Shown in pieces: positions 5,818 to 55,143 of a stretch of 64,000 nt of DNA (its first letter is position 1; every line of letters begins with the position of its first letter). The DNA lies in contig NZRO01000025.1 in the NCBI GenBank assembly GCA_002696275.1, forward strand, positions 108,670 through 172,669, read 5' to 3'. The DNA comes from Flavobacteriales bacterium (GTDB taxonomy: Bacteria; Bacteroidota; Bacteroidia; Flavobacteriales; BACL11). The notes under the pieces are model-generated. The model was not told the origin of the DNA. It saw only the letters and a program-made list of their open reading frames with translations, and did no database searches. The position numbers and the translations under genes were made by a program.

Positions 5818-6958
5818 CAACTATTACAGACAAAAAAATATATAATATTAGTGTATTATGCATCCCAAATAGGTAACTATCTGTAAACATAATTGCTAAA
5901 TACATTATCGGCAGCAAAATTCTTACAAATCCATCTTTTAATTTTTTTAATTCTCTAATTTGAAAATAAAAAACAGAAAGAAAGATTATCAAGCCAGGTA
6001 TTCCCAGCTCTACCCACACATATAAATAGTTATTATGAGGTGTTTGATGATATTTCACTATCTTTTCTGTTTCGTTGTCAATTTTTCTAAAGACATCTGT
6101 GAAAGCACCAGCTCCATAGCCAATTATTGGTTTCTTCTTAATAAGTTCTATGGAGTGTGTAAATAAAAGAGAACGAGAACTAGATTGTTTATTTAAAAAT
6201 CTACTTATCTCTTGTTTGTATCTTTTTTGTAGCATTTCTGAAGAGTTGTACACAACAAACAAGCCTAAAAATAGTAACCCTATAGCTATAAGCAAATACT
6301 TTATATTTTTTCTCAAGTGTATAAATATAAAAATCAGCAACAATAAAACAAAGACTAGCTGACCCGATTTTCCAGCTTCTGTAAAAAGAGAAAATAAATA
6401 AAAGGGAAGAAATATGAGAAGTAAAATTTTAAATTTCGGTTGTAAATTTAACTTAAAATAAGAATAAATTAGAATTAGTATTGTTGAAGCCAGAAAAACA
6501 TTATGTTCTGTATATTTTAGATACGCAGCGATAGTCCAGTTTTCTTCATTTATGTTTAAAATACCATAATTTTCAGAGATAGCAATAACTGAAGAAACAA
6601 ACATAGAGATAAAAAAAGTAAATACTGATTTCTTTATAATTTTATTCGAAAAATTGGTGCTGTAAAAAACTGGCAATAACCATAATAAAGAAACTCTTTT
6701 TAAGAGCCAATAAGTGTCTGTAAATGTTACAAAACAAATCGAATATATATAATATAGCAACAAAAGAATGATGATAGATACCATCCATTTACTAGAAAGT
6801 ATTTTTTTAATTTTGTGATTAAAACCTCCTTCAAATATAACGGTGATTAGCAGTGTTAAAAGTATGATATTAGTAAGAAATACCGACAGGGAAATACTTA
6901 AGGCTAGTAGAACTAAAAGTAAACTCTTAATATTACATAGTAAAGATTTATTCATCAA
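5792..6958 (-). CDS. O-antigen ligase (Wzy_C) family polytopic membrane protein
   Basis: 388 aa and very hydrophobic, with about 10 or more TM segments. It has a large loop with ...IIGYGAGAF..., typical of the O-antigen ligase/WaaL-like family. Confidence 0.65.
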   Translation of the reverse strand: MMNKSLLCNIKSLLLVLLALSISLSVFLTNIILLTLLITVIFEGGFNHKIKKILSSKWMVSIIILLLLYYIYSICFVTFTDTYWLLKRVSLLWLLPVFYSTNFSNKIIKKSVFTFFISMFVSSVIAISENYGILNINEENWTIAAYLKYTEHNVFLASTILILIYSYFKLNLQPKFKILLLIFLPFYLFSLFTEAGKSGQLVFVLLLLIFIFIHLRKNIKYLLIAIGLLFLGLFVVYNSSEMLQKRYKQEISRFLNKQSSSRSLLFTHSIELIKKKPIIGYGAGAFTDVFRKIDNETEKIVKYHQTPHNNYLYVWVELGIPGLIIFLSVFYFQIRELKKLKDGFVRILLPIMYLAIMFTDSYLFGMHNTLILYIFLSVIVVNYQYKPS

Positions 6959-16346: not shown

Positions 16347-16375
16347 TTCATTTGTCTTTAACAGATATAAAATTG

Positions 16376-16383
16376 TATTTTTG
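16376..16383 (+). promoter_or_regulatory. -7 box TATTTTTG, with -33 TTTG at 16351-16354, for the DUF4175-like gene
   Basis: TTTG-N21-TATTTTTG. The box ends 7 nt before the ATG at 16391. Confidence 0.6.
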
Positions 16384-16390
16384 CATTCTG

Positions 16391-19300: not shown

Positions 19301-19696
19301 CAAAAACAACAACAAATAAGACAAAGACTTCAAGAAATTAGAGATGAGATAGGCGAAAGTGGAGAAAAAGGTAATATTGATAGAATTTTAGAGAAGATGG
19401 AAGAAAATGAGATAGATATTTTAAATAACAAAATTAGTAATGAATCCTTATTAAGGCAGGAAGAAATTCTTACTAGATTATTGGAAGCTGAAGAGTCTCA
19501 AAAAGAAAGGGGGGAGGAAGAAAAAAGAGAGTCTATAGAGTGGAATTATGAAATAAAAAACAATAATTCAGAATATTTGGAATATATACAAAAAAAGAAA
19601 GAACAAGAAGAATTGCTTAAGACTACTCCTTTACAATTAAACCCATTTTATAAAGAAAAGGTCAATAGATATTTTAATACTATTTCAGAAAAATAA
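16391..19696 (+). CDS. DUF4175-like giant membrane-anchored coiled-coil protein
   Basis: About 1100 aa with N-terminal TM helices, a beta-rich middle and a ~600-aa K/E-rich coiled coil. Its position between gltX and ybeY matches what I recall for DUF4175 proteins in Flavobacteriia. The start is set at the first ATG after the promoter, because the track start at 16352 is a TTG. Confidence 0.6.
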   Translation: MKESENNLLFDKLNRFINKYYKNKILKGLIFLLSSLLIFLLFFSFIEYFSRLSSFGRGVLFWIYCSLNLIILIKFIVVPLTQLLRIGKTISFSDAAKIIGRHFPEIDDKILNILQLNELSDSDNLLIQASITQKTESIQSFSFSNSINFKENKKHLKWIAVPSLLIFLFFITGNKHIITASSARIVDHNTEYDLEAPFKFIINNKKLEIIQQEDFELDIDVEGSKIPNNIYIEIENNRFSLKKNDFTNFRFLFKNVVSDINFKLYADGFYSESFCLKTIQKPNILEFNTILHYPAYTKKKNEILSNIGDLIIPEGTIVSWGFEFKNTDSLYFLYKNKLEKHKVINDSISIQKTLLEDETYFVSVSNENIKSTYTQYDIQVLIDEFPNINLEANLDSANNILYFEGIVSDDYAISKLEFNYEIIRNDTSLKINENLIVNHTSSENYYHFLDIQNLNLAPSDEINYYFEVWDNDKVNGHKSKKSFIGKHKELSEDKLKEQRDEESKKVKNGMDKSIELAKAIEKDIEELKKSLIEKKSLGWEERKKAENIIKKHKNLENQIQKNNIKNYKKNLTNEKLNTSILKKQKQLEDLMDKVLDDESKKLMQELQDLLEEMNKKEMKDVLDRIDQENTDLEKELDRNLELYKELEFEQKLEETIEKIENIKERQIELKKETEDKNSNTEDLSKIQDKLQKDFQKLEEEIKNLEKKNSDLEDKKNLPKTEEEQKQASKSMEESKSSLDKKQKNKSSKKQEKVIEKLEEISEKMAGLQSSCSNDKPMENMETLRQILENLITLSFNQEELIHNISSIPKNSTNIVKYIKEQKKLSENSKIIEDSLFALSKRVIQIESLINKEISAINYNIDKSISLLEERKVNQGLSKQQFTMTSVNNLALLLSETLKQMQMDMANKTPGSKQCNKPGSSSKPSLKELKKMQESLKNEMKGKSGNEGEKGKKKGENKSEEGESRRLMQMAQKQQQIRQRLQEIRDEIGESGEKGNIDRILEKMEENEIDILNNKISNESLLRQEEILTRLLEAEESQKERGEEEKRESIEWNYEIKNNNSEYLEYIQKKKEQEELLKTTPLQLNPFYKEKVNRYFNTISEK

Positions 19697-23049: not shown

Positions 23050-23057
23050 TAGTTTTG
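23050..23057 (+). promoter_or_regulatory. -7 box TAGTTTTG for the secreted-protein pair 23075-24640
   Basis: Perfect TAnnTTTG match 17 nt upstream of the ATG at 23075. Confidence 0.55.
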
Positions 23058-23074
23058 TATATAATTGCATTTCT

Positions 23075-24088
23075 ATGAAAAAATTTGCGGTTTTAATTTT
23101 ATGTTCTCTGATTAGTTCTCTGCTAAAGTCCCAATGTTTAAACGCAGACAGCTTGATCGCGACAAACATTACACATATAAACGCTCAGGCAAATTGGGCC
23201 CCAGCTCCTAATGCTCACCATTATCTAATTCATTATAGGGAAGTAGGAACATCAAATTGGAGTAATTTGGGAAATATTGACTCTACTATGACAAGTAGAA
23301 ATATTCCTCAGTTGCAACAGTTAACAACCTACGAATGGCAAATTAAAACATTTTGTGACTCAACAAATCAACCGAATTCAGGGTGGTCATACTCAGACAC
23401 ATTCACAACATCAGCCTTTATCCCATCACAATTTAACCCAAGCATATTACCTATTATTGCTAATTCTACATGTGGTCAGAATACTGCTTTTTCAATTATA
23501 GCACAACAACTACAGAACGAACCCGATATATCAACCTCGGTATTTTATTCTAACAAGGGTCAGTTTGAAATGAACAAAATTAGTAATGGAGACACGCTGG
23601 GAAACGCTTCTTACAGTAGTCCAGCAATAAGTTTCAGCTCATTATTAGTATTAGATTTTAAACTCGGTCCTAACTACGCGAAAATAGATATGATTGATTC
23701 TTTAGGAGATGTTGTTGGTTTTTTTGTAATAGAAAATCTGTCAAGTGGGATAAAAGTTACAACTATAGGTCCAAACGATGGAAATAATTATACAAATGGG
23801 TATGTTAGTCAAATAAACTTTACAGATTTATTTGTAAACCCAAGTGAAGAAGGCCCAATCATATTTACCGCTGATATAAACTCCGAGACGGGAGACACTT
23901 TACAGAAAATTGATTCCTCAATTGTAATTAGCTGTCCTCAAACAGGTATAAAAAAACCTGATAAAGAAACTAAACTTATAACGATCTTAGATCTTTTAGG
24001 AAAAGAAGCCAAAAAAAGTTCAAATAAAATACTCTTGTACATTTATAGTGACGGTACTATAGAGAAAAGGTTATATATAAAAAATTAA
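23075..24088 (+). CDS. secreted protein with an N-terminal fibronectin-III-like domain and a short shared C-terminal tail
   Basis: 337 aa. It has a signal peptide (MKKFAVLILCSLISSLLKSQ) and an FN3-like pattern (ANWAPAPNAHHYLIHYREVGTSNW...TTYEWQIKTFC...WSYSDTFTT). The last 37 aa are LITILDLLGKEAKKSSNKILLYIYSDGTIEKRLYIKN. Confidence 0.5.
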   Translation: MKKFAVLILCSLISSLLKSQCLNADSLIATNITHINAQANWAPAPNAHHYLIHYREVGTSNWSNLGNIDSTMTSRNIPQLQQLTTYEWQIKTFCDSTNQPNSGWSYSDTFTTSAFIPSQFNPSILPIIANSTCGQNTAFSIIAQQLQNEPDISTSVFYSNKGQFEMNKISNGDTLGNASYSSPAISFSSLLVLDFKLGPNYAKIDMIDSLGDVVGFFVIENLSSGIKVTTIGPNDGNNYTNGYVSQINFTDLFVNPSEEGPIIFTADINSETGDTLQKIDSSIVISCPQTGIKKPDKETKLITILDLLGKEAKKSSNKILLYIYSDGTIEKRLYIKN

Positions 24089-24094
24089 ATTGAC

Positions 24095-24640
24095 ATGAAA
24101 AAAACATTACTAATTTTAATGTTACCAAGCTATTTGTTCTCTCAAACACACTCTGTTGATAACAATGTATTATTTATGAGTGGAAATGATGTTAATTCTG
24201 ACATAGCAATTAACACATTTTATAATTCAATAGACACGTGTGACATTAGCTGGAACATTATATACGATTCATTGCCGACAAATTGGGAGTTCTCAATATG
24301 TTTTCCAGATTGTAACAACATTGGAATTGTTAGTGGATCAGGCCTCTTTTTTCCTAATGAGAAATCATATCTAAATTGTCATATGTATCCAAATGGCGCT
24401 TTCGGAGAAGGTGTGGTACAAATGGAGATTGTTACAAATAACATGTATCGAGACACTATTACATGGTATGGTCAGGTTAAACTTGCTTCAAACACAGAAG
24501 GCCTAAACCCCGCAAGTGCTTATCATAAATTAATAAAAATTACTGATGTTTATGGGAGGGATGTTACTGATTACAATAACAAATTATTGCTTTACATATA
24601 TAGTAATGGTAAAGTTGAAAAGAAAATTAATTTGAGGTAA
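24095..24640 (+). CDS. small secreted protein with the same short C-terminal tail
   Basis: 181 aa. It has a signal peptide (MKKTLLILMLPSYLFSQ) and a Cys-containing beta-rich body. The last 36 aa are LIKITDVYGRDVTDYNNKLLLYIYSNGKVEKKINLR. The gap to the upstream gene is 6 nt. Confidence 0.45.
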   Translation: MKKTLLILMLPSYLFSQTHSVDNNVLFMSGNDVNSDIAINTFYNSIDTCDISWNIIYDSLPTNWEFSICFPDCNNIGIVSGSGLFFPNEKSYLNCHMYPNGAFGEGVVQMEIVTNNMYRDTITWYGQVKLASNTEGLNPASAYHKLIKITDVYGRDVTDYNNKLLLYIYSNGKVEKKINLR

Positions 24641-24775
24641 ATGTTAACACACCATTATAGTGAGGACACGGTTGAGAGAAAATAATTATTGAAAGTAAAA
24701 ACAAAATCTGATAGGTGATTTTATTTATAACTAGGTCCTTAGGCACTAATTAGAACTTTTTAGAAAATTACTAGA

Positions 24776-24783
24776 TACTTTTG
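24776..24783 (+). promoter_or_regulatory. -7 box TACTTTTG for the 24788-27157 gene pair
   Basis: Perfect TAnnTTTG match ending 4 nt before the ATG at 24788. Confidence 0.55.
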
Positions 24784-24787
24784 CATC

Positions 24788-26164
24788 ATGAAAAATTCCT
24801 TAATTTATTTATTATTTTTATTGATCCCTTACACTACATTTTGTCAATTAGTTCCAAACAATACTAATTACAATCAAGATATTGTATGGAAAAATGTTTT
24901 TACTAATGGCCCCGCAGGCAAAGTAAATAGAGGTTTAGTTGATCTAGATGGTAATTGCGCAGTTATTTTTATGCCACCAAATATGTCTAGAATACATAAA
25001 ATAAATGGTGCTGACGGGCAATTAATATGGACAAAAGCGATAAGCAATACTGTTGGTTTTGGGATTACAGAAATTTATGATTCTGGAAGAGTAGATTATA
25101 TTGTTTCAGGAGGAGCGGGGCCTTCACAAGAACGATGGATAGCAAGGCTAAATGGAGATGACGGTTCGGTTATTTGGGATAAAACATATAATTATTCTGG
25201 AAGCACTAATGAATTTGATGGTGTTCGAATGACAATAATTGGTTCAGATGGATATATCTATGCCTCGGGCTTTATTGGGGGCGATGAGTCGGGTACTATA
25301 TTTATTGTGTACGCGGGACAGTCGGTTGTCATGAAAATTGATCCATCAGATGGAAGTGAGATATGGACTAATATAAATCCAAATTCTGAATATTCAATAG
25401 CTTTAGTTGAGTCGTCAGATAATTATATCTATTCTGCGGGTACTAGATGGGATGAGGATTTGAGTGTGACTAAAATAGATAAATTTGGGAATAGACTATG
25501 GACGGAAGATATTGCTAACACATCAGATATTATTCCTGCGGATTTATGTATTTCAAATGATGATATTATTTATTATGGAGGACACAAAGGAAGATCTGGG
25601 GCTGGTGATCCTTTTGATTATTCTTGTCTTAGTGTTGACACAAACATGAATGTAAATTGGATAAAACATTATGCTAATCCAAGGGGGTATAGCTTAAACC
25701 ATATAAGAAATGAGTTATATGGAATCAAGGCTGGAACAGATGGTATATATATGTTTGGAGGAACTGGAGATGAAGGAAGTTATAGCGCGACAAATTCTCC
25801 TTTTCTTTCATCTGATATATGGAATGGATGGGTGCTTTCAGTTGATCAAAATGGTGATATTTTAAAAAGTGATATATACTGTCATGATCAAGTAAATACC
25901 GCAACTGAATATGGAGCGCTTATAGACAACGGATATGTAATATTTAATGATACCGATGCTCAAGGAGATGAAGAGGTTGGTGTTATGAAAATTATTAATG
26001 GTAGTAATAGTCCAACTTCATTGAAAGATAACCTGTGTGAAATCCGAAACCCTCTGATTAAAATTGTTGATTTATTAGGTCGCGAAACAAAAGAGACAGG
26101 GAATCAACCCTTATTTTATATCTATGATGACGGAACTGTAGAGAAGAAAATTATCATTGAATAA
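24788..26164 (+). CDS. secreted beta-propeller-like repeat protein with the same short C-terminal tail
   Basis: 458 aa with a signal peptide. It has repeated xDGxxIW-type blades (INGADGQLIWTK, LNGDDGSVIWDK, IDPSDGSEIWTN, IDKFGNRLWTE), as in PQQ/BamB-like propellers. The last 36 aa are LIKIVDLLGRETKETGNQPLFYIYDDGTVEKKIIIE. Confidence 0.5.
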   Translation: MKNSLIYLLFLLIPYTTFCQLVPNNTNYNQDIVWKNVFTNGPAGKVNRGLVDLDGNCAVIFMPPNMSRIHKINGADGQLIWTKAISNTVGFGITEIYDSGRVDYIVSGGAGPSQERWIARLNGDDGSVIWDKTYNYSGSTNEFDGVRMTIIGSDGYIYASGFIGGDESGTIFIVYAGQSVVMKIDPSDGSEIWTNINPNSEYSIALVESSDNYIYSAGTRWDEDLSVTKIDKFGNRLWTEDIANTSDIIPADLCISNDDIIYYGGHKGRSGAGDPFDYSCLSVDTNMNVNWIKHYANPRGYSLNHIRNELYGIKAGTDGIYMFGGTGDEGSYSATNSPFLSSDIWNGWVLSVDQNGDILKSDIYCHDQVNTATEYGALIDNGYVIFNDTDAQGDEEVGVMKIINGSNSPTSLKDNLCEIRNPLIKIVDLLGRETKETGNQPLFYIYDDGTVEKKIIIE

Positions 26165-27157
26165 ATGAAAAAAATACTAATACTACTATTGTTCCCCATA
26201 TTAGTTGTTTCTCAAACTAATAAAGAAAGTGTTCAAGATGAAAATATATTTACTATGTTTTATAATGTGGAAAATCTGTTTGACACTATTAATAATGCCA
26301 CTACAAAAGATGATGAATTTCTTCCAACCGGTAAAAAAAAATGGAACACATACAGATATAATCATAAAATAAATCAATTATCAAAAGTGTTTTCTAGTAT
26401 AATTCAAGATGAAAATGACAATAAAATGCCGGATATTATTGGTTTATGTGAAGTTGAAAATAAACAAGTAATCGATGACCTTTTAAAAACTCCAATTTTT
26501 AGTAATTATAATTTCACGATTATTCATCAAGATAGTCCTGATAGTCGAGGGATAGATTGCGCCCTATTGTTTAATAATCAATTTCAGTTATTAAAATATG
26601 ATTTTATTTTAATTGATAATCCAGAGATAAAGAAACCGACTAGAGATATTGTATATGTTAAGTTAAAAATAAAGAATAAGGTTATAAATTTTTTTGTGAA
26701 TCATTGGCCATCAAGATGGGGGGGACAAGAGGAAACAAATTATAAAAGAGTATTTGTTGCAAAAGTTCTTAGAAAATATATTGACATAAATGTTTCTGAG
26801 GATGAATATACTATAATAATGGGAGATTTTAACGATTATCCAACTAATGAAAGTTTATCAGAAGTTTTAGTTGGAGATAATTTAATTAATTTAATGACTA
26901 CAGATTTTATTTTACAGAAGGGGTCTTATAATTATAAAGGATCGTGGAATTGGTTAGATCAGATTATTATTTCTAAGAATTTTCTTGATTCTGATGTGAA
27001 AATATTTTCTGCTGGGGCGTTCCAGAAAGATTTTATGCTTTACACAAACAAAAAAGAGGAAGTGTACCCTAGTAGAACATTTGGTGGGAACAACTGGTAT
27101 GGTGGTTTCTCTGATCATCTTCCCGTTTATTATCGGTTTAGTCTCACATCTGATTGA
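26165..27157 (+). CDS. secreted endonuclease/exonuclease/phosphatase (EEP) family protein
   Basis: 330 aa with a signal peptide (MKKILILLLFPILVVSQ). EEP motifs are present: YNVENLFD, GLCEVEN, GDFND, SDHLPV. The ATG directly follows the upstream TAA with a 0-nt gap. Confidence 0.8.
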   Translation: MKKILILLLFPILVVSQTNKESVQDENIFTMFYNVENLFDTINNATTKDDEFLPTGKKKWNTYRYNHKINQLSKVFSSIIQDENDNKMPDIIGLCEVENKQVIDDLLKTPIFSNYNFTIIHQDSPDSRGIDCALLFNNQFQLLKYDFILIDNPEIKKPTRDIVYVKLKIKNKVINFFVNHWPSRWGGQEETNYKRVFVAKVLRKYIDINVSEDEYTIIMGDFNDYPTNESLSEVLVGDNLINLMTTDFILQKGSYNYKGSWNWLDQIIISKNFLDSDVKIFSAGAFQKDFMLYTNKKEEVYPSRTFGGNNWYGGFSDHLPVYYRFSLTSD

Positions 27158-27874: not shown

Positions 27875-28111
27875 CTATTTAATCTGCCAATCAAAACATA
27901 ACATTGAAGGACTAGATTCTAAAGGCTTAGAACAAGAGCTCAACCCATAGTGATGACAGTTGGCGCAAGAAGAATGTTTGCTTATTGATTCCTTGTATAA
28001 ATGACTATCACAAAAATTATGGATTCCAACCTCTTCATTATGTTTTTTACATATAAAATTTTGAAGTAAGTTTTCACAGTTTATACAGGTGTTAGTTGTT
28101 TTGAGATTCAT
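27875..28111 (-). CDS. hypothetical small cysteine-rich protein (two CxxC-x7/8-C-x11/12-C half-sites)
   Basis: 78 aa with 8 Cys at positions 9, 12, 21, 34 and 49, 52, 60, 72, plus 7 His. It has no signal peptide, and I recognise no family. Confidence 0.4.
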   Translation of the reverse strand: MNLKTTNTCINCENLLQNFICKKHNEEVGIHNFCDSHLYKESISKHSSCANCHHYGLSSCSKPLESSPSMLCFDWQIK

Positions 28112-28373: not shown

Positions 28374-28450
28374 TGGTGACCTAGGGAGGATTCGAACCCC
28401 CAACCCCCAGAGCCGAAATCTGGTATTCTATCCAATTGAACTACTAGGCC
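28374..28450 (-). tRNA. tRNA-Arg (anticodon UCG), CCA-encoded
   Basis: My own fold of the reverse complement is GGCCTAG-TA-GTTC-AATTGGATA-GAAT-A-CCAGA-TTTCGGC-TCTGG-GGGTT-GGGGG-TTCGAAT-CCTCC-CTAGGTC-A-CCA. It forms a 7/4/5/5 cloverleaf with U33, anticodon TCG, G37, a GG D-loop with an A in the A20 position, and a TTCGAAT T-loop. There are G:U pairs at 2:71, 10:25 and in the T-stem. Confidence 0.9.
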
Positions 28451-28466: not shown

Positions 28467-28541
28467 CAAAAGAAGTTTATACCCACAATTTTTAGTTTTA
28501 TTTAATGTTATCTAGTCAATATGTTATAATATTGTAACTTG

Positions 28542-30692
28542 ATGAAAAAAACTATATTTTACCTTCTATTTATATGCTTGTCCTATGCGTTAAAAGGACA
28601 AAACACACCTGTATATTACTGGCAAGAACATCTTTCCCACTCAAATGCAAAATATATTCTAGAGGTAGAAAATAATATGTACTGCGCTACGGAAAATGGA
28701 CTATTCTTCTATAATAAAGAAGATTATACCATAAATGTATTAAATAAAATAACTGGACTGTCTGATGTTGGAATTTCTGCTATGAATTACGACTCAAAAA
28801 ATAATATTATTATAATCTCTTACCATAACACTAATGTAGACCTGATAAAAGAAGGGGAAATTATAAATATCACAGATATAAAAGATAAACTTATAATAGG
28901 AGAGAAAAAAATAAACAATATTGATGTTGAAGATGGCGTCGCCTATCTGTCCACTAGTTTTGGATTAATCCTAATAGACCTTTTAAACGAGGAGATAATT
29001 GACACTTATAAAATAGGTGCTAATGGAAGTTTTGAAGGAATAAACGATTGTTATATTGACGACACCTGTATTTTTGTTGGCACTACTGGGGGAGTTTATT
29101 ACGCCGATAAAAATTCAAATACTTTATTTGATTTTAACAGCTGGATCAAACATCCTTCTCATTCTAGCGAGGTTTCAGAAATCATTTTAGGTTTTGGGGA
29201 GATTTTATTTAATAATCAATATCCTAATATAAGAATGAGAAATAGTAACGGCCATTATTTAGAGGTTGGAAATGATTTTATTAATGTTTATCAAGATGAC
29301 AATCTTATTTCAGAACTAATTGGAGGTTCACAATTTAGTAAAATTCAAGATGCTTGGGTGGATAAAAATAATATTCTTTGGATTGCGGATAGTTCTAATT
29401 CCTTATTAAAATACGAAAATTTTGAGTTTGCAGAAATTATAAAACCAAATGGGCCAGCTTCCAACACGATAGAAAATATCAAGATTCAAGATGGCTTTTT
29501 GTTTATCGTTCACAACAATACTTCGAATACCGTCTCCAGAACAGAAGATCTAATAGACTGGACATATTGGGATCAGTTTAATGATATTGTTTGCTCAGAA
29601 AAAATTGGCAAAAAAATTTATTTCGGAAGTTCCACATCTGGACTGTGGAAAAAAGATGGGGGCAGTTTTATAAGGTATACAAATGGAAACACTCAAAATA
29701 TATTAGACACCAACTATTATATCTCTAATCTAACATCTGACAAGGAAGGAAACTTGTGGGGAACGATTTCTAATTCAGGAAAAGTTCTTTTTGTAAGAAC
29801 TTATGACAATTATTGGGACTACTTTTTCATGCCTCAGTTACCAAACGATAGGGATATCCGAAACTTAATTATTGATAACCATGGTCAAAAATGGGGTTCT
29901 GTTCGAGCAAAGGGTTTATTTGTATATAACGATAACGGAACAATTGAAGATAAGTCTGATGATCAGTATAAGGTAATTACCACGAGTTTAGGAAGTGGGA
30001 ACTTACCAAGTCAGGAGGTGTATGCATTAGCTAACGATTTAGATGGAAACATTTGGGTAGGGACCAATGAGGGAGTTTGTGTTTTTTACTCACCTTCATC
30101 GGTCTTTAGCGGTTATAATTTTGATGCCCAACAAATAATTGTCGAGGAAAATGGGTTTGGACAATATTTATTGAATTCTGAAATTGTATATACCATTGTT
30201 ATAGATGGGGGTAATAGAAAGTGGATAGGAACACTAGGCTCAGGATTGTATCTTCTTTCAGAAGATGGAACAGAAGAAATATATCATTTTACTAGCAAAA
30301 ATAGCCCCTTAATCTCAGATAATGTTTTGGACTTAGAGATTAATAATAGTACGGGGGAAATTTTTATCTCTACAGACAAAGGCCTTATGAGTTTCAGAAA
30401 TGACGCTACTGCAGGAAATACTAATATCAATTCAATAAAAGTGTTTCCAAATCCTGTTAGAGAAAACTATTATGGCGCCATTAGTATAGAAGGGTTGTCT
30501 TTCGGGTCGAATGTAAAGATTACTGATGTGAACGGAAACCTAGTTTTTGAAACAAATTCTAATGGAGGAACTGCCGTCTGGAATGGAAAAGACGCAAACA
30601 ACAAAAGAGTTGGGACGGGAGTATATCTAGTGTTTAGTTCTGACAAATATGGCGATGAGAAAGCTGTGGGAAAGATTTTATTTATACACTAA
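28542..30692 (+). CDS. PorZ-like T9SS protein (double beta-propeller plus C-terminal sorting domain)
   Basis: About 716 aa with a signal peptide and two-component-regulator-propeller-like repeats. It ends in a canonical CTD (VFPNPVRENYYGAISIEGL...VKITDVNGNLVFE...GTGVYLVFSS...GKILFIH). Size, architecture and adjacency to recO match what I recall for flavobacterial PorZ. This has not been verified by search. Confidence 0.55.
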   Translation: MKKTIFYLLFICLSYALKGQNTPVYYWQEHLSHSNAKYILEVENNMYCATENGLFFYNKEDYTINVLNKITGLSDVGISAMNYDSKNNIIIISYHNTNVDLIKEGEIINITDIKDKLIIGEKKINNIDVEDGVAYLSTSFGLILIDLLNEEIIDTYKIGANGSFEGINDCYIDDTCIFVGTTGGVYYADKNSNTLFDFNSWIKHPSHSSEVSEIILGFGEILFNNQYPNIRMRNSNGHYLEVGNDFINVYQDDNLISELIGGSQFSKIQDAWVDKNNILWIADSSNSLLKYENFEFAEIIKPNGPASNTIENIKIQDGFLFIVHNNTSNTVSRTEDLIDWTYWDQFNDIVCSEKIGKKIYFGSSTSGLWKKDGGSFIRYTNGNTQNILDTNYYISNLTSDKEGNLWGTISNSGKVLFVRTYDNYWDYFFMPQLPNDRDIRNLIIDNHGQKWGSVRAKGLFVYNDNGTIEDKSDDQYKVITTSLGSGNLPSQEVYALANDLDGNIWVGTNEGVCVFYSPSSVFSGYNFDAQQIIVEENGFGQYLLNSEIVYTIVIDGGNRKWIGTLGSGLYLLSEDGTEEIYHFTSKNSPLISDNVLDLEINNSTGEIFISTDKGLMSFRNDATAGNTNINSIKVFPNPVRENYYGAISIEGLSFGSNVKITDVNGNLVFETNSNGGTAVWNGKDANNKRVGTGVYLVFSSDKYGDEKAVGKILFIH

Positions 30693-33713: not shown

Positions 33714-36230
33714 ATGAAAAACAACATACTTACCTTTTTAATACTTGCTATTAGTCTTGTTTCTTTTTCTCAAACTTGGGAAGAAAACGCATACGAAGAA
33801 AATAAAAATGCTACCTTTTTTGATTTAAAAAAATCATTTGATGATTATAGAAAAGCTATACCATACACCAAGGGAAATGGCTATAAACCATATGCTAGAA
33901 ATATGAATTTTTTAGAATCAAGAGTTGATGAGAATGGATTTTTTCCTTCAAACGCTTTATGGGATGAATGGTTAAAAATAAAAAATAAAAAATCTTCAAC
34001 AGCAAACTGGACTCCTTTGGGGCCATTTGATGTTCCTATCATTATTTCAAATAACAAGAAGAGAGGAAACGGTAGAATAAACTGTATTGAGTTTGACCCA
34101 AACAATGAAGATGTTTTTTGGGTGGGCGCTCCTGGCGGTGGTTTGTGGAAAACAACTGATGGGGGATTAAGTTGGTCAACAAATACTGATAACCTTCCAG
34201 TTTTAGGAGTTTCTGATATTTTAATTGACCCAACGAATACTGACATAATGTATATTGCGACCGGCGATGCTCATGGTAGTGATACTTATTCAATTGGAGT
34301 ACTAAAAAGTTGGGATGGGGGTGTAACATGGGACACAACTGGATTAAGCTACAATGTGAGTCAATCTAATGAAATAAGCAAGCTAGAGATGAACCCTAAT
34401 TATCCAGATAGTATCTTTGCTGCTACCGGAGATAATATTATGCTTACAATTGACGGTGGATCTAACTGGCTTCCTGTTGGGCCAAGTGGTAGGTGGAGAG
34501 ATATTCATTATAAACCTGGAAACACAAATATTTTATACGCTATGAAACAAACTAGTGGCACCTCTAATGTTTATAGGTCTGTTGATGCTGGCGCAAGCTG
34601 GCAGGTTTGTGATAATGGAGTTTCAAGTATAAATAAAAGAAGGCCTTTGATTGCTGTAACACCTTCAAACCCTGAAGTTATTTATGCTTTATTTTCAGAT
34701 AACGGATGGGGCTTTCATGGTTTGTATAAATCTTCTGATGGTGGTGATAATTGGTTGTTACAGTCTGACACTCCGAATATACTAGGAAGAGACACAGACG
34801 GAAGCTCAACAGGAGGGCAGTCGTGGTATGATATGAGTTTAGCTGTTTCTAACGAGGACGAAAATCATATTATTGTTGGGGGAATTAATTTATGGGAGTC
34901 GTTTGATGGAGGAATTTCTTGGAACATTTCTGGAAGTAGTGGCAATAGCTCTGATTACTCATATATGCATGTAGACCAACATGCTGCAGAGTTTAATCCA
35001 CTAAACAATGTTGCTTATGTAGGAAATGATGGTGGTGTCTATAAATATTTTAACACACTAAATACGTGGATTGATATTAGTGATGGCTTAGAAATTTCTC
35101 AATTTTACAAGTTGGGATTGTCATCTATTAGCGACTATACACTTGTTGTGGGAGCTCAGGATAATGGGACAGAAAGATTAACAGGGACAACTTGGGAGGC
35201 TATTAGAGGAGCAGATGGTATGGAGTGTATTATTGATCCGTATAATGACGATATTATTTATTCCTCATCTCAATATGGTGGAATAAAAGTATCTTATAAT
35301 GGGGGTGTAGATTGGAATAATATTAAGCCTGTAAGTTACGAAGGCGCTTGGGTTACTCCTTATAAAATGCATCCCTTAAATAATAATGTTTTAGTTGCGG
35401 GTTACAATGTCGTGTATAAAAGTAATACCGCCGCCGCTTCTTGGGACTCAATATCCCCTACATATGGGCAATTGAAAACAATCGCTTTAGCTCCTTCTGA
35501 TTTAGATTATATTTATGCTGCTACTTACTCGGGTTTATGGGTAACAAAAGACAATGGTGTAAATTGGAACTATATTAAAACCGGGCTTCCTGCAGGCAGC
35601 ATCTCAGATGTTACCGTTTCTAATACTAATCCAGATAGGGTGTTTGTTACTTTGTCCTCTTTTAATGAAAATGATAAGGTCTTTGAAAGTAATGACGCTG
35701 GAGATACATGGGTAAATATTTCGGGAACACAGTTACCAAATTTACCTGTCAACTGTATTGTTTTCCAATCTTACGCGAAGGACGACTTGTATATTGGCAC
35801 AGATATTGGGGTATATCACAAAGATAGCACAATGACAGAATGGCAATTGTTTAATAATGGACTGCCTCATGTAAGTATAAGAGAGTTAGAAATTCAATAT
35901 ACAGCTGGAAAAATAAGGGCGGCTACTTTTGGAAGGGGGGTCTGGGAAAGCGATTTAAATATATTTCCGGTTTCGGTAAACTCTGTAGACCCTCTATTAA
36001 TTAAGGTATATCCTAACCCTGTTGATGAGAAACTAACAATCAATACACCGTATAAACTTAGTAAGAGTTATATTCAGATTTTTACTATAACAGGTGAGTT
36101 AGTTATAAATGAAGATTTAGTTTCAGATAACACGAATATATCTTTTAAAGATTTTGAAAAAGGAGTATATGTATATAAGATATTTAACGGGTCGGAAATT
36201 TTAAAAACAGATAAGATTCTTGTTTACTAA
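33714..36230 (+). CDS. BNR/sortilin(VPS10)-type repeat protein with a T9SS type-A C-terminal sorting domain
   Basis: 838 aa with a signal peptide. I counted 9 S/T-x-D-x-G-x-x-W BNR motifs (TTDGGLSWS, SWDGGVTWD, SVDAGASWQ, SSDGGDNWL, SNDAGDTWV and others). The CTD reads IKVYPNPVDEKLTINT...GVYVYKI...KILVY. Confidence 0.75.
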   Translation: MKNNILTFLILAISLVSFSQTWEENAYEENKNATFFDLKKSFDDYRKAIPYTKGNGYKPYARNMNFLESRVDENGFFPSNALWDEWLKIKNKKSSTANWTPLGPFDVPIIISNNKKRGNGRINCIEFDPNNEDVFWVGAPGGGLWKTTDGGLSWSTNTDNLPVLGVSDILIDPTNTDIMYIATGDAHGSDTYSIGVLKSWDGGVTWDTTGLSYNVSQSNEISKLEMNPNYPDSIFAATGDNIMLTIDGGSNWLPVGPSGRWRDIHYKPGNTNILYAMKQTSGTSNVYRSVDAGASWQVCDNGVSSINKRRPLIAVTPSNPEVIYALFSDNGWGFHGLYKSSDGGDNWLLQSDTPNILGRDTDGSSTGGQSWYDMSLAVSNEDENHIIVGGINLWESFDGGISWNISGSSGNSSDYSYMHVDQHAAEFNPLNNVAYVGNDGGVYKYFNTLNTWIDISDGLEISQFYKLGLSSISDYTLVVGAQDNGTERLTGTTWEAIRGADGMECIIDPYNDDIIYSSSQYGGIKVSYNGGVDWNNIKPVSYEGAWVTPYKMHPLNNNVLVAGYNVVYKSNTAAASWDSISPTYGQLKTIALAPSDLDYIYAATYSGLWVTKDNGVNWNYIKTGLPAGSISDVTVSNTNPDRVFVTLSSFNENDKVFESNDAGDTWVNISGTQLPNLPVNCIVFQSYAKDDLYIGTDIGVYHKDSTMTEWQLFNNGLPHVSIRELEIQYTAGKIRAATFGRGVWESDLNIFPVSVNSVDPLLIKVYPNPVDEKLTINTPYKLSKSYIQIFTITGELVINEDLVSDNTNISFKDFEKGVYVYKIFNGSEILKTDKILVY

Positions 36231-52539: not shown

Positions 52540-55143
52540 TTATCTAACTTCTAAATAATTATTATCAAAGAACCTTGAATAGCCATCAACATCTTTGTTT
52601 TTATAAAATTCTATAAAGTTTTGTTGAGAAATAATAATTTTTTTAAATGTTGTTTTGTTTATTTCTTTTAACAAATCTGGATTGGAAAACAATGTTTTTC
52701 CATAAGCTGAAACATCTAAAGAGTTTTGGAAAGTTTTAACCATTAAAATATGTTGATCTATCCCCATTAACATTGTGTTTATTTCTAAATTTGCAACACT
52801 ATAATTTTTGGTGTTAAAATCAGAAACTATTGTTTTGATATAATTTATATCAGTGCCCTCTTTTGGACACATTATTAATAGATAGTGATTAGTGTTGTCT
52901 TTATACCTGTAGGGTGTTTTTAGAATTGCTGTAGTGTTTCTCTCTTCTAAACCCCGGATATTATTGAGTGTTGAAAGCAGCTCCACGCATCTCTCTGATG
53001 CACTAGTGTTAGGATATTTTAACTCTCCGAGTTCTAATTTTTTAATAAACGCAAGTGTGTCTTTATTTAACTTAAAATCTGATAATGCATTAATTAGGAA
53101 ATATTTTGGGCGGTATTTCAAGTTTTCTTCAGTTAAAGGTTCTTGTAGTTTTATTGAGGATTGAGAGGAAGACAATTCAAAGCTATCTTTCAAATAATAG
53201 TTGTGTATATTATAATACTCTAATTCTAATTTTATTTTATGATCTAGAACCGACTGTATATAGTTACTGTCCAAAAGTGATTTTGCATAGTTACTCTCTG
53301 GAAACTTATCAATTAAAGTTTGTTTTGTGTTTTTCGATTTTGACAGGCTGTTGTTCTCTGTTTGTAGTTTGTACATTAAATAATATGAAAGTGGTGTTAT
53401 TTCTTTATGACTCGGGAACCTTCTAACTAAATTTTCCAACATGTTTTCAGACTTTATCAATTCTTCTAACTCATCTTTATAAATGATTGAAGATTGGTAG
53501 TAGGCGTTAATGATTTTTGCGTTAGATTCTGCAATTGCTTTTTGGGTTAAGGGGATTTGATCTAAGTAATATTGTTCTGATTTTAAATCTTGATCTTTTT
53601 GACCGCTGCCCACATCTGATATTGTGGAGTCTCCATCAAATGTGTTTAGAGTCTTTTTATTAGACCTTCTCCAATCATCTTCTAGTTTACGTTTTCCCCA
53701 TTTTTTTCTGAATTCTGACAGTCCAAAACTTAGGGTTGCGGGGTTATAGAAATACCACTTTCCCCCCGAGGTATTTCTTCCAAAGTTGTCGTCCCTCATC
53801 CCCCTGTCTAACATTCCTCTATACCCTCTATTTTGTTTTTCTCTTAATTCATCCTGTTCTTTTTTAACTATTTCTGCAATAACAGACTGAATAATCTTTC
53901 TTCTTTCTGATTCGGGAAGACTCGACAGCATTTGTAAACTATCTTCTAATGAAATGGTTGATAGGTGGTTTACTAGTTTTTCTAATATTTTTTGTGTGTT
54001 TTTGGTTTCTTCAAATTGAGAATGTTCTTCAGGCATAAATGTGTACGCGCTATCATAAAAAGTTTTTGAAGAAATATAATCAGATCTGTTATAGTATATT
54101 TTTCCCAATTGTAAAAAAGAAAGTGATTTTTGAATATCGTTATCTATACTGTATTTTGTTGAAAGCTCGTAGTTTTCAATTGCTAATGCCGTGTCTTTAT
54201 CAACAATGTCCATTTCAGCCAGTGTGAAATATATTTGGTCTAAGTAATCTTTGTTTTTTTCATCTTTAATCATTTTCGTCAAATTGCTTCTCATTTGATA
54301 TAGATCTTTTTTGCTCCTAAGGGTTCTTGCTAAACTCATCTTGGCGTTAAACACCATTTCATACTCTGGGTTTGAACCTAATACCAGTTCAAAATATTTT
54401 TTTGATTGCTTTATATTTCCCGCGTCTTGGTAAACCTGGGCTATTATATAATAAAATCTAGCTCTCTTATTTTTTCTTTTAATTAATTTACACGCTGACT
54501 TTAATTCATCAGCTGCTTCAGAAAATAAATTTTGATTTAAATATAAATCCGCAAGTGTTAAATAAAGGTCTCTATATAGCCTTTCGGGAAACTTTTTTTT
54601 TGATTGTAGTTCTTCTAGTATCGTTTCTGACGAGTAATAGTCCCCTAAAGCAATATAACATTTTGCTATCCACAACTCTGATTCAAATGATAATTCTGTT
54701 TTTTTCCATTTATTTTTAATAAACTCGAATGTCTTTTTCGCTTCTAAAAATTGTCCCTTATAATAATATGATTTTGCCACTAAAAAATAACTGTCATCAA
54801 TCCACTTACAATATTCTTTATTTCTAATGTTTATGGAGTGATTTTGTATGACTCGAGACCCCTTTTTTATGGATTTGTCCATATATGAGTGATGAGCCGT
54901 AGAGCTTGTAATATTATTATATTTAAAAACAGGAAGTATTTTGGAGTAATCGTCATTATGTGACTTTTCTAATTTTAATATCCCGTATTTCAAGCTTTCT
55001 TTACCATTAAAATATCCATTGTACCTCGCTGTAATGTCGTGATATTTTCTATGTACAAAGGTCTTTTTCTTTGTGGAACAAGAGCTTATTATTAGAAATA
55101 ATAATAGCGCTGATATGTGGATTTTAATGTTCAAAATTTTCAT
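52540..55143 (-). CDS. SprE/PorW-like T9SS periplasmic TPR lipoprotein
   Basis: 867 aa with a lipobox (LIISSCSTKKKTF) and an N-terminal ...RKYHDITARYNGYFNG... pattern. It has multiple TPR-like units, and its size (about 870 aa) and position beside the bactofilin/atp block match my recollection of Flavobacterium sprE. Not verified by search. Confidence 0.55.
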   Translation of the reverse strand: MKILNIKIHISALLLFLIISSCSTKKKTFVHRKYHDITARYNGYFNGKESLKYGILKLEKSHNDDYSKILPVFKYNNITSSTAHHSYMDKSIKKGSRVIQNHSINIRNKEYCKWIDDSYFLVAKSYYYKGQFLEAKKTFEFIKNKWKKTELSFESELWIAKCYIALGDYYSSETILEELQSKKKFPERLYRDLYLTLADLYLNQNLFSEAADELKSACKLIKRKNKRARFYYIIAQVYQDAGNIKQSKKYFELVLGSNPEYEMVFNAKMSLARTLRSKKDLYQMRSNLTKMIKDEKNKDYLDQIYFTLAEMDIVDKDTALAIENYELSTKYSIDNDIQKSLSFLQLGKIYYNRSDYISSKTFYDSAYTFMPEEHSQFEETKNTQKILEKLVNHLSTISLEDSLQMLSSLPESERRKIIQSVIAEIVKKEQDELREKQNRGYRGMLDRGMRDDNFGRNTSGGKWYFYNPATLSFGLSEFRKKWGKRKLEDDWRRSNKKTLNTFDGDSTISDVGSGQKDQDLKSEQYYLDQIPLTQKAIAESNAKIINAYYQSSIIYKDELEELIKSENMLENLVRRFPSHKEITPLSYYLMYKLQTENNSLSKSKNTKQTLIDKFPESNYAKSLLDSNYIQSVLDHKIKLELEYYNIHNYYLKDSFELSSSQSSIKLQEPLTEENLKYRPKYFLINALSDFKLNKDTLAFIKKLELGELKYPNTSASERCVELLSTLNNIRGLEERNTTAILKTPYRYKDNTNHYLLIMCPKEGTDINYIKTIVSDFNTKNYSVANLEINTMLMGIDQHILMVKTFQNSLDVSAYGKTLFSNPDLLKEINKTTFKKIIISQQNFIEFYKNKDVDGYSRFFDNNYLEVR

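What the first reader, a model, noticed from the sequence alone, without database searches (positions are those of the whole stretch)
23075..27157. Secreted-protein cassette: three unrelated bodies share a ~36-aa C-terminal tail resembling a collapsed T9SS sorting domain, co-transcribed with an EEP nuclease
Four consecutive + strand genes all begin with Sec signal peptides ending in ..SQ or ..CQ. The first three have unrelated bodies: FN3-like, a small Cys-containing beta protein, and a PQQ/BamB-like propeller.

All three end in the same short tail:
- A (23975-24085): LITILDLLGKEAKKSSNKILLYIYSDGTIEKRLYIKN
- B (24530-24637): LIKITDVYGRDVTDYNNKLLLYIYSNGKVEKKINLR
- C (26054-26161): LIKIVDLLGRETKETGNQPLFYIYDDGTVEKKIIIE

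Thirteen positions are invariant: L1, I2, I4, D6, G9, N17, L20, Y22, I23, Y24, G27, E30 and K31. The three tails are well diverged at the DNA level, so the similarity is maintained by selection and is not a recent duplication.

The same window has two full-length canonical type-A CTDs, in the genes ending at 30692 and 36230 (xxPNPVxxxL...D..G..V...GVY...K). The short tail lacks the PNP strand and the middle of that domain. It could align only to the D..G+..- strand and the final Y.Y....G....K.i.i strands.

It may therefore be a minimal or novel sorting tag. The fourth gene, an EEP nuclease, starts 0 nt after gene C and lacks the tail. Two TAnnTTTG boxes (23050, 24776) split the cassette into two 2-gene units. 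The cassette lies on the 3' side of a tRNA-Arg, beside a PorZ-like gene.
Basis: partly seen in the sequence, partly recalled or inferred. Interest (0 to 1): 0.6.

Follow-up and report, generated by a model that had tools for sequence, protein, structure and literature searches.

The report
Miniature type IX secretion tail
Three neighbouring secreted proteins of a marine flavobacterium end in the same ~45-residue tail, which is most likely a cut-down, three-strand type IX secretion signal that standard annotation models miss, although thousands of ocean proteins carry it.

Summary
Genes A (23075-24088), B (24095-24640) and C (24788-26164) have unrelated bodies and Sec signal peptides. They share a C-terminal tail with 13 invariant residues. 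Gene D (26165-27157) is an EEP nuclease without the tail.

No Pfam or NCBIfam T9SS sorting-domain model matches the tail, even at E<=10. Even so, the evidence points to a short form of the type A T9SS C-terminal domain (CTD):
- A tail profile finds 4079 cluster representatives. In 149 of the best 150 the match ends at, or one residue before, the last residue.
- In uncultured marine Flavobacteriales genomes, 111 of 124 complete tail ORFs have signal peptides.
- Orthologues of propeller C carry either this tail or a canonical PF18962 CTD at the same position.
- hhalign aligns the tail colinearly with canonical CTDs, and no shuffled control reaches that score.
- AlphaFold2 predicts a three-stranded sheet after a flexible linker.
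- A conserved [ST]|[SAG]-I motif sits where the T9SS sortase PorU would cut.
- The window encodes PorZ and PorW/SprE.

Three-strand short CTDs of 43-55 aa were shown experimentally in Prevotella intermedia (PMC11969387), reported there as the only such species. So this is a new, unmodelled marine variant of a known kind. Secretion itself is untested. The promoter boxes and the conserved-cassette idea are not supported.

The parts
23075..24088 (+). Gene A: signal peptide, weak FN3-like region, unknown beta-rich body, short tail.
   Evidence: ORF. fn3 E=4e-4, below threshold. All 120 listed homologues lack PF18962; nearly all complete ones end in a short tail.
23945..24085 (+). Short CTD of A (47 aa, GIKKPDKETK-LITILDLLGKEAKKSSNKILLYIYSDGTIEKRLYIKN). 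Putative PorU site is PQT|GI.
   Evidence: Tail alignment. Tail HMM hit E=1.8e-16. Upstream motif statistics. The cleavage site is inferred.
24095..24640 (+). Gene B: signal peptide, small Cys-containing body of unknown family, short tail.
   Evidence: ORF. No Pfam or NCBIfam family. P0043 and P0381 look like related bodies with the tail (by eye).
24500..24637 (+). Short CTD of B (46 aa, GLNPASAYHK-LIKITDVYGRDVTDYNNKLLLYIYSNGKVEKKINLR). Putative site is NTE|GL.
   Evidence: (E=2.2e-16).
24788..26164 (+). Gene C: signal peptide, PQQ/BamB-like beta-propeller, short tail.
   Evidence: PF13360 at 35.6 bits. AF2 mean pLDDT 86; propeller strands end near residue 403. Orthologues carry interchangeable C-terminal modules.
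26018..26161 (+). Short CTD of C (48 aa, SLKDNLCEIRNP-LIKIVDLLGRETKETGNQPLFYIYDDGTVEKKIIIE). Putative site is SPT|SL.
   Evidence: In the AF2 model the linker 411-419 has pLDDT<50 and the tail has pLDDT ~87, with strands 423-427, 441-446 and 451-455. The tail-only model has pLDDT>90 over its last 30 residues.
26165..27157 (+). Gene D: EEP-family (ExeM/NucH-like) nuclease or phosphatase with a signal peptide and no tail. Adjacent, but not shown to belong functionally.
   Evidence: PF19580 E=2e-92; NF033681 E=1.6e-13. Adjacency to C is kept only in L001. A different protein with EEP-like catalytic motifs (read by eye), P0351, does carry the tail.
28539..30692 (+). PorZ, a T9SS attachment-complex component with a canonical long CTD.
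   Evidence: NF052228 E=3.9e-160; PF21544 E=2e-36.
33714..36230 (+). Sortilin/BNR-like secreted protein with a canonical long type A CTD. It serves as the within-window positive control.
   Evidence: PF18962 E=9e-11; TIGR04183 E=3e-9.
52540..55143 (-). PorW/SprE, a T9SS periplasmic lipoprotein.
   Evidence: NF052312 E=8.5e-180.

Best explanation
The shared tail is a miniaturised type A T9SS C-terminal sorting domain, a 'short CTD' of about 45-48 residues.

Proposed pathway, all inferred: the Sec system exports the pre-protein to the periplasm through the N-terminal signal peptide. The tail folds into a single three-stranded antiparallel sheet. Strand 1 ends in the D-x-x-G-R/K loop (motif B), strand 2 is xFYIY (motif D without its Gly), and strand 3 is V-E-K-K-I-I-I (motif E with the conserved Lys). 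These correspond to strands 3, 6 and 7 of the seven-strand long CTD. The T9SS translocon and the PorV shuttle would recognise this unit. After transport across the outer membrane, the sortase PorU would cut in the flexible linker, at PQT|GI in A, NTE|GL in B and SPT|SL in C. The passenger would then be released or attached to the cell surface.

Shown here: strict C-terminal position, pairing with signal peptides, exchange with canonical CTDs among orthologues, colinear profile similarity to CTDs, the predicted three-strand fold, a conserved cleavage-like motif, and T9SS genes in the same window.

Not shown: T9SS dependence, PorV binding and cleavage.
For: 1. C-terminal location. The tail profile finds 4079 representatives at E<=1e-3 and 1773 at E<=1e-10. 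In 149 of the top 150 the match ends at, or one residue before, the last residue.

2. Signal peptides. Across 82 sources (80 fetched loci, 79 of them from species-representative genomes, plus L001 and the window) there are 132 tail ORFs, all with the tail within 5 residues of the stop. Of 124 complete ORFs, 111 have a signal-peptide-like start. The bodies fall into at least 42 families.

3. Module exchange. Orthologues of propeller C (55-88% identical) continue after '...GDEEVGVMKI' with either this tail or a PF18962 CTD. NCBI names some of the latter 'T9SS type A sorting domain-containing protein'.

4. Profile similarity. hhalign of the tails against those CTDs gives P=7.9e-4 with a colinear alignment, B loop to B loop, FYIY to GiY.v, EKKIIIE to the last strand. 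The score is 20.0 against a column-shuffle null of 8.6 +/- 1.9 with a maximum of 17.0; 0 of 150 shuffles reach it, and the reversed alignment scores 10.3.

5. Structure. AF2 predicts a three-stranded sheet with pLDDT 87-95 after a linker with pLDDT<50. The Foldseek matches are not significant, but rank 2 of 350,542 chains is the RemZ type A CTD 8gl8_D and rank 21 is the RemA CTD.

6. Cleavage-like motif. A conserved [ST][ST]|[SAG]-I-[QE]-E lies 12-17 residues before the motif B Asp, with Ile at 52%. This matches the PT/GI cleavage consensus with conserved Ile at +2 reported for P. intermedia, and PorU's T/E/D/N|G/A/S preference (PMC11969387; PMC10202324).

7. Precedent. P. intermedia has 48 short CTDs of 43-55 aa with one three-stranded sheet equivalent to strands 3, 6 and 7. 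They are cleaved and glycosylated experimentally (PMC11969387). The last 22 residues of the HBP35 CTD (motifs D and E) suffice for GFP secretion (PMC10202324).

8. Machinery. The window encodes PorZ and PorW/SprE. Long type A and type B CTD proteins occur in the same genomes.

9. Selection acts on the peptide. Identical residues are encoded by different codons in 34% of pairwise comparisons.
Against: No curated T9SS CTD model (PF18962, TIGR04183, TIGR04131, type C) matches the tail or the last 60-97 residues, even at E<=10. NCBI annotates tail proteins as hypothetical or PQQ-like.

The hhalign probability is only 25%, and Foldseek finds nothing at E<=0.001.

The Gly of motif D, absolutely conserved in P. 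intermedia, is absent here (PLFY instead of xGxY). The loop between motifs B and D is about 10-12 residues, against 1-6 in P. intermedia.

Long CTDs are recognised by size and shape in a SprA/PorV pocket, not by sequence (PMC10994853). This fits poorly with a tail far more conserved in sequence than long CTDs, and may indicate a sequence-specific partner.

There are no experimental data for this lineage, and no sequences of validated short CTDs were available for direct comparison.
Confidence: 0.75

Rival explanations
1. The tail descends from a CTD but has become a specialised signal. A dedicated partner, such as a PorV paralogue, a PorP/SprF-like anchor or a distinct sortase, reads it by sequence and routes these cargos to a different fate from long-CTD cargos, for example surface tethering instead of release.
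For: The sequence conservation is extreme (Y, G and K invariant; D, G, R, N, P, L, I, Y, D, D, T, V and E each at >=90%), unlike the shape-based, poorly conserved recognition of long CTDs (PMC10994853). Long type A, type B and short tails coexist in the same genomes. Specialised shuttle proteins for different CTD classes are known in F. johnsoniae (PMC12618676, abstract). Tail genes cluster: 36 of 82 sources (81 loci plus the window) hold more than one, and in 35 of those all are on the same strand.
Against: No recurrent partner gene was identified next to tail genes in the loci; I did not do a formal neighbourhood enrichment. In P. intermedia, short and long CTDs are modelled to bind the same PorV sites and both are cleaved and glycosylated (PMC11969387).
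Confidence: 0.15
2. The tail is not a secretion signal. It is a small C-terminal binding or oligomerisation module, for example beta-strand augmentation onto an outer-membrane or cell-wall component, carried by periplasmic or otherwise exported proteins. Its resemblance to CTD motifs is convergent.
For: No T9SS CTD HMM hits it. Foldseek matches are not significant. A three-stranded sheet is a generic fold. Orthologues of C also carry other C-terminal modules (a dockerin-like repeat, or nothing), so that junction accepts modules of several functions.
Against: The tail is strictly terminal, with its last strand ending at the C-terminus. Binding modules are not normally constrained to the last residue. 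The colinear match of three motifs beats all shuffles. A cleavage-like motif sits in a disordered linker. The distribution is limited almost entirely to T9SS-bearing Flavobacteriales.
Confidence: 0.07
3. The tail is an ordinary full-length type A CTD whose N-terminal half has diverged beyond recognition, so the whole domain is still a seven-strand sandwich.
For: Type A CTDs are poorly conserved outside their motifs. hhalign extends weakly into the residues upstream of the tail.
Against: Only 12-17 residues separate the end of the passenger domain from the first tail strand. AF2 predicts them as a low-confidence linker with no additional strands. The last 90-97 residues do not hit CTD models. 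Orthologues with true long CTDs are 25-50 residues longer.
Confidence: 0.03

Closest known systems
Short T9SS CTDs of Prevotella intermedia (Veith et al. 2013; Ye et al. 2025, Open Biol 15:240335, PMC11969387)
   Same: Length is 43-55 aa from the cleavage site to the C-terminus; here 46-48 aa in the window and ~45 aa in the family consensus. Both have a single three-stranded sheet preceded by a flexible linker, and motifs B, D and E in the same order. The cleavage-site consensus is a small residue followed by Ile (PT/GI), compared with [ST]|[SAG]-I here. Both coexist with long CTDs in the same organism. Cargo types overlap: LRR proteins and FN3 adhesins.
   Different: The class is different (Flavobacteriia, free-living marine, against Bacteroidia, oral). 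Motif D lacks the Gly that is absolutely conserved in P. intermedia. The loop between B and D is longer (~10-12 aa against 1-6). Sequence conservation is much tighter (…PLFYIYDDGTVEKKIIIE). Generic CTD HMMs do not detect it, whereas most P. intermedia short CTDs were found with P. gingivalis/T. forsythia-based HMMs. No experimental validation exists. I could not test shared ancestry against independent shortening because no P. intermedia sequences were available.
Canonical (long) type A T9SS CTD, PF18962 / TIGR04183
   Same: C-terminal position on Sec-exported proteins of Bacteroidota. It shares the D..G+ loop, an aromatic strand and a terminal Lys-containing strand. It occupies the same junction in orthologues of protein C. 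T9SS genes are present.
   Different: It has three strands instead of a seven-strand sandwich and no PNP strand. It is about half the length. No HMM match at any threshold tried.
C-terminal 22 residues of P. gingivalis HBP35 CTD (motifs D and E), reported sufficient for GFP secretion (as summarised in PMC10202324)
   Same: It shows that the last two strands of a type A CTD can carry the export information. These are the part most conserved in the marine tail.
   Different: That is an engineered truncation in another species. The natural marine tail also keeps the motif B loop.
Type B (PF13585/TIGR04131) and type C (ChiA-like) T9SS CTDs
   Same: They are alternative C-terminal T9SS signals that coexist with type A. 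Type B proteins occur in the same marine genomes.
   Different: There is no sequence match. Those domains are ~100 residues or more and are not known to be cleaved (type B).

Membership tests
T9SS type A CTD (PF18962 / TIGR04183) | Match to the curated HMM at or above its cut-off | tested here: not met
   No hit for A, B or C, whole or as the last 60-97 aa, at E<=1 or E<=10. The positive controls in the window do hit.
T9SS type A CTD (PF18962 / TIGR04183) | Seven-stranded Ig-like beta-sandwich of ~70-90 aa | tested here: not met
   AF2 gives three strands in ~36 aa after a disordered linker.
T9SS type A CTD (PF18962 / TIGR04183) | Extreme C-terminal position on a protein with an N-terminal Sec signal peptide | tested here: met
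   In 149 of the top 150 representatives the match ends at, or one residue before, the last residue. All 132 tail ORFs have the tail within 5 residues of the stop; 111 of 124 complete ORFs have signal-peptide-like starts (crude heuristic).
T9SS type A CTD (PF18962 / TIGR04183) | Conserved Lys in the last strand (motif E) | tested here: met
   The Lys of the E-K pair is invariant in 106 sequences and present in 96% of 114 genome-derived tails.
T9SS type A CTD (PF18962 / TIGR04183) | T9SS core or attachment genes in the same genome | tested here: met
   PorZ (NF052228, E=4e-160) and PorW/SprE (NF052312, E=8.5e-180) are in the window. PorP/SprF and SprB are in relative L002. The rest of the genome could not be examined.
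Short T9SS CTD (P. intermedia type, PMC11969387) | 40-55 aa from the sortase site to the C-terminus | tested here: met
   47, 46 and 48 aa for A, B and C; ~45 aa for the family consensus, measured from the inferred [ST]|[SAG]-[IL] site. The site itself is inferred.
Short T9SS CTD (P. intermedia type, PMC11969387) | [quoted passage not shown] | tested here: met
   Strands 15-20, 32-38 and 43-48 plus one bridge at residue 25 in the tail-only model, with pLDDT>90. The same strands appear in full-length C.
Short T9SS CTD (P. intermedia type, PMC11969387) | Motifs B (x-G-basic loop), D (GxY-I) and E (basic residue) in order, with short spacing | tested here: inconclusive
   B is met (D97, G99, R92%). 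E is met. D keeps Tyr-Ile but lacks the Gly. The B-D spacing is ~10-12 aa against the 1-6 reported. The colinear hhalign match to long CTDs is significant against shuffles.
Short T9SS CTD (P. intermedia type, PMC11969387) | Cleavage-site motif (PT/GI, Ile at +2) in a flexible linker | tested here: met
   The family shows [ST][ST]|[SAG]-I, with Ile at 52%. A has PQT|GI, B has NTE|GL and C has SPT|SL. The linker has pLDDT<50. This tests the sequence motif only.
Short T9SS CTD (P. intermedia type, PMC11969387) | T9SS-dependent export, PorU cleavage and C-terminal glycan attachment | not testable with these tools
   This needs reporter fusions in T9SS mutants or proteomics.
Short T9SS CTD (P. intermedia type, PMC11969387) | Sequence homology to validated P. 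intermedia short CTDs | not tested
   No P. intermedia CTD sequences were retrievable. No supplements are held, and the tables list only long-CTD peptides.
T9SS type B (TIGR04131 / PF13585) and type C CTDs | HMM match | tested here: not met
   No NCBIfam or Pfam hit at E<=10.

The most novel reading that the evidence does not exclude
The marine tail is not just a shortened CTD handled like any other. It is a distinct, sequence-read T9SS signal class with its own shuttle, anchor or processing partner. This would give streamlined ocean Flavobacteriales a second cargo-routing channel. Its near-invariant PLFYIYDDGTVEKK core, paired with an equally stereotyped MKKLLLILLCLPMIGFGQ signal peptide, would mark a rapidly diversifying surface-protein repertoire.
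Probability: 0.15. Interest if true: 0.7.

Novelty: new variant of a known kind. Interest (0 to 1): 0.5.

Why it matters
T9SS cargo is currently predicted with type A, B and C HMMs; T9GPred (PMC10515386) and NCBI's PGAP both work this way. Those models miss this tail completely. Yet it marks at least 4079 protein clusters (50% identity level). It also marks at least 12 proteins within about 48 kb sampled from one genome assembly of about 1.9 Mb. All are from abundant, uncultured marine Flavobacteriales.

If the tail is a T9SS signal, the secreted and surface proteomes of these bacteria (LRR adhesins, esterase-like enzymes, propellers, FN3 proteins) are being substantially under-called.

It would also extend the three-strand short CTD from one oral Prevotella species to a second class of Bacteroidota. 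That would provide a natural minimal signal for working out what the translocon, PorV and PorU actually recognise. A dedicated HMM could be built directly from the alignments made here.

Tried and rejected
- Pfam and NCBIfam scans of whole proteins and of the last 60-97 aa found no CTD model and only noise hits (HTH_30, DUF695, LEF-10).
- A PDB sequence search with the tail profile found only chance hits to ribosomal proteins at E>1.
- A literal text search for the tail sequence in papers gave 0 hits.
- The first tail-profile word search returned only fragments of 76 aa or less, which at first looked like mini-proteins. They are C-terminal pieces of longer genes on short or indel-rich contigs. 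For example, P0001 is the end of a C-like gene on L001, a nanopore contig 93% identical to the window with 213 gap openings.
- Promoter and terminator scans do not define the operon structure, and TAnnTTTG is not enriched.
- The idea of a conserved A-B-C-D cassette is rejected. Only L001 keeps the order.
- The idea that the tail is integral to the propeller fold is rejected. Orthologues end cleanly without it, and AF2 separates it by a disordered linker.
- I tried to obtain P. intermedia short-CTD sequences from the paper and failed.

Full report
**1. The observation**

All four start with signal-peptide-like sequences ending in SQ or CQ.

Pfam gives:
- a sub-threshold fn3 match for A,
- nothing for B,
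- PQQ_2/BamB-like for C,
- Exo_endo_phos_3 (E=2e-92) for D.

The last ~36 residues of A, B and C align with 13 invariant positions. The underlying DNA has diverged. A six-frame scan finds the motif nowhere else in the 64 kb, and each copy ends 5-6 residues before a stop codon.

The two canonical long CTD genes (PorZ at 28539-30692 and the sortilin-like gene at 33714-36230) and the tRNA-Arg at 28374-28450 (minus strand) are confirmed. TAnnTTTG boxes exist at 23050 and 24776, but the motif is no more frequent than in shuffled sequence: 94 against 107 +/- 12.

**2. Known models do not recognise the tail**

Neither the whole proteins nor their last 60-97 residues hit PF18962, TIGR04183, TIGR04131 or any other Pfam or NCBIfam model at E<=10. 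The window's long CTDs are detected. NCBI names tail-bearing proteins 'hypothetical' or 'PQQ-binding-like beta-propeller repeat protein'.

**3. The tail is a large family, always terminal, on secreted proteins**

A profile of the three tails retrieved 193 marine-metagenome sequences ending in …NKELLKVTDLLGRETKxxxNQPLFYIYDDGTVEKKIIIE. These were short because they come from short or indel-ridden contigs. L001, for instance, is a nanopore contig 93% identical to the window with 213 gap openings.

An exhaustive HMMER search of 1.84 billion cluster representatives found 4079 proteins at E<=1e-3 and 1773 at E<=1e-10. In 149 of the best 150 the match ends at, or one residue before, the last residue. 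Many begin with a stereotyped signal peptide, MKKLLLILLCLPMIGFGQ.

A scan of 185,579 species-representative genomes for [FL]YIYDDGT gave 309 matches, 287 of them confirmed. Almost all are in uncultured marine Flavobacteriales or 'Cryomorphaceae' MAGs and SAGs, with several per genome.

In the 82 sources analysed (79 loci from that scan, L001, L002 and the window), covering 650 kb:
- there are 132 tail ORFs, all with the tail within 5 residues of the stop;
- 111 of the 124 complete ORFs have a signal-peptide-like start by a crude heuristic;
- the bodies fall into at least 42 families;
- 36 of the 82 sources hold two or more tail genes, and in 35 of those all are on one strand;
- one ~1.9 Mb assembly has at least 12 tail genes in the small part sampled.

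Identical residues are encoded by different codons in 34% of pairwise comparisons. So the peptide is under selection, and the similarity is not a recent DNA copy.

**4. Link to type IX secretion**

(a) Module exchange. Orthologues of propeller C (55-88% identical) all reach '…GDEEVGVMKI'. They then continue with one of several modules: this tail (455-468 aa), a canonical PF18962 CTD (483-505 aa), Flg_new plus CTD (578-592 aa), a dockerin-like repeat, or nothing. NCBI names some of the CTD forms 'T9SS type A sorting domain-containing protein'. The tail therefore occupies the same slot as the known secretion signal.

(b) Profile-profile comparison. Comparing 169 tails with 61 such CTDs gives P=7.9e-4. 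The score of 20.0 exceeds all 150 column-shuffled controls (8.6 +/- 1.9, maximum 17.0) and the reversed control (10.3).

(c) Structure. In the AlphaFold2 model of full-length C (mean pLDDT 86), the propeller strands end near residue 403 and a linker at 411-419 has pLDDT<50. The tail has pLDDT ~87, with strands 423-427, 441-446 and 451-455. The tail alone folds the same way, with pLDDT>90 over its last 30 residues. Foldseek finds nothing significant for so small a unit, but the RemZ and RemA type A CTDs from the translocon cryo-EM structures rank 2nd and 21st of 350,542 chains.

(d) Cleavage-like motif. Twelve to seventeen residues before the motif B Asp the family shows [ST][ST]|[SAG]-I-[QE]-E, with Ile at 52%. 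A has PQT|GI, B has NTE|GL and C has SPT|SL.

(e) Machinery. The window encodes PorZ and PorW/SprE. Related loci encode long type A and type B CTD proteins and PorP/SprF. No ORF carries both a tail and a long CTD.

**5. Comparison with what is known**

Type A CTDs are seven-strand sandwiches held in a plastic SprA/PorV pocket. Only the near-terminal Lys is both conserved and in contact with the translocon (PMC10994853). The last 22 residues of HBP35 (motifs D and E) suffice for GFP secretion, and PorU cuts at T/E/D/N|G/A/S (PMC10202324).

Ye et al. 2025 (PMC11969387) is the key precedent. It describes 48 short CTDs of 43-55 aa in Prevotella intermedia. These are predicted to form one three-stranded sheet equivalent to strands 3, 6 and 7 of long CTDs. 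They retain motifs B, D and E, they are preceded by a PT/GI cleavage motif with a conserved Ile at +2, and they are experimentally cleaved and glycosylated. [quoted passage not shown]

The marine tail matches this description in length (45-48 aa from the inferred site), fold, motif order, linker, cleavage-like motif and coexistence with long CTDs. It differs in four ways:
- it lacks the motif D Gly;
- its B-D loop is longer;
- it is far more conserved in sequence;
- generic CTD HMMs do not see it.

I could not obtain P. intermedia short-CTD sequences to test direct homology.

**6. Mechanism and confidence**

My best explanation (0.75) is a short type A-like T9SS signal: Sec export, folding of the three-strand unit, recognition at the translocon and PorV, then PorU cleavage in the linker.

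What is shown: position, signal-peptide pairing, exchange with CTDs, profile similarity, predicted fold, the cleavage-like motif and the presence of T9SS genes. What is inferred: export route, binding partner and cleavage.

The rivals are:
- a CTD-derived but specialised, sequence-read route with its own partner (0.15), suggested by the extreme conservation;
- a non-secretory binding module (0.07);
- a cryptic full-length CTD (0.03).

**7. Peripheral claims**

The EEP gene D abuts C, but that adjacency, and the A-B-C-D order, are found only in the near-identical relative L001. Orthologues of C in L002 and L003 have other neighbours. A different protein with EEP-like catalytic motifs (read by eye), P0351, does carry the tail. 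Co-transcription and the two-unit promoter model remain unsupported.

**8. Verdict**

It is a new, widespread and so far unmodelled marine variant of a recently characterised kind, the short T9SS CTD. It is not a categorically new system. Interest is moderate (0.5). It matters for annotating the secretomes of abundant ocean Flavobacteriales, and as a natural minimal T9SS signal.

Noticed in passing
Metagenome proteins P0243, P0245, P0247 and others; loci L003-L081: Many tail-bearing proteins also share an almost invariant signal peptide, MKKLLLILLCLPMIGFGQ. Both ends of the protein are stereotyped while the bodies differ. This suggests frequent shuffling of passenger domains between fixed export signals.
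   Followed up: partly
Orthologues of window gene C: P0176, P0187-P0205, P0224-P0228: Some orthologues of the propeller replace the tail or CTD with a Cys-bracketed dockerin/EF-hand-like repeat (CPEDVDNDLSVGVGDILEVLGEFGC…DVDGDGAVSVTDVLAVISAFGNACL). Others end right after the propeller. The same body is therefore deployed with several alternative C-terminal modules.
   Followed up: no
window 52540-55143 (-): PorW/SprE, the T9SS periplasmic lipoprotein (NF052312, E=8.5e-180). With PorZ at 28539-30692, this makes two T9SS components within the 64 kb.
   Followed up: yes
window 16352-19696 (+): A 1114-aa ORF with a TTG start has no NCBIfam match at E<=1e-5. It is the largest unassigned gene in the window.
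   Followed up: no
window 6948-8609 (-): An S41 C-terminal processing peptidase (TIGR00225, E=2e-78). There is no evidence linking it to tail processing, but it is a C-terminus-directed protease in the same window.
   Followed up: no
L001 (ENA ERZ28548065, chicken_3 contig_17654), whole locus: This is the closest public relative of the window, 93% identical with 213 gap openings over 12.5 kb. Its genes are shattered into 30-150 aa calls. It looks like an indel-rich nanopore assembly, and it explains the 59-aa 'proteins' that consist only of the tail.
   Followed up: yes
window 26165-27157 (+) versus P0351: The window's EEP nuclease has a signal peptide but no tail or CTD. A different protein with EEP-like catalytic motifs from metagenomes (GDFNA…DHFPL, read by eye) ends in the consensus tail. 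Where gene D's product ends up is open.
   Followed up: partly
Homologues of window gene A: P0470-P0530: More distant homologues of A keep recognisably related but diverged short tails, for example …EIYDLLGRPTSWKANTILIYKYINGKTKKIITIK and …ISDFIGRKNRSRANTIQLIKLSDGTIEKRIILKK. The short-tail family is therefore broader than the FYIYDDG consensus, and the counts given here are lower bounds.
   Followed up: partly
window 27875-28111 (-): A small 78-aa ORF rich in Cys and His (CINCENLL…CKKH…CDSH…CANCHH…C), possibly a zinc-ribbon-like protein, lies between the cassette and the tRNA-Arg. Not analysed.
   Followed up: no
L040 (MAG labelled Thalassomonas sp.) and L068 (MAG labelled Pelagibacterales): Two tail-bearing contigs sit in MAGs assigned to non-Bacteroidota taxa. 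Given the flavobacterial-type signal peptides on them, these are most likely mis-binned contigs and not genuine occurrences outside Bacteroidota. Not verified.
   Followed up: no
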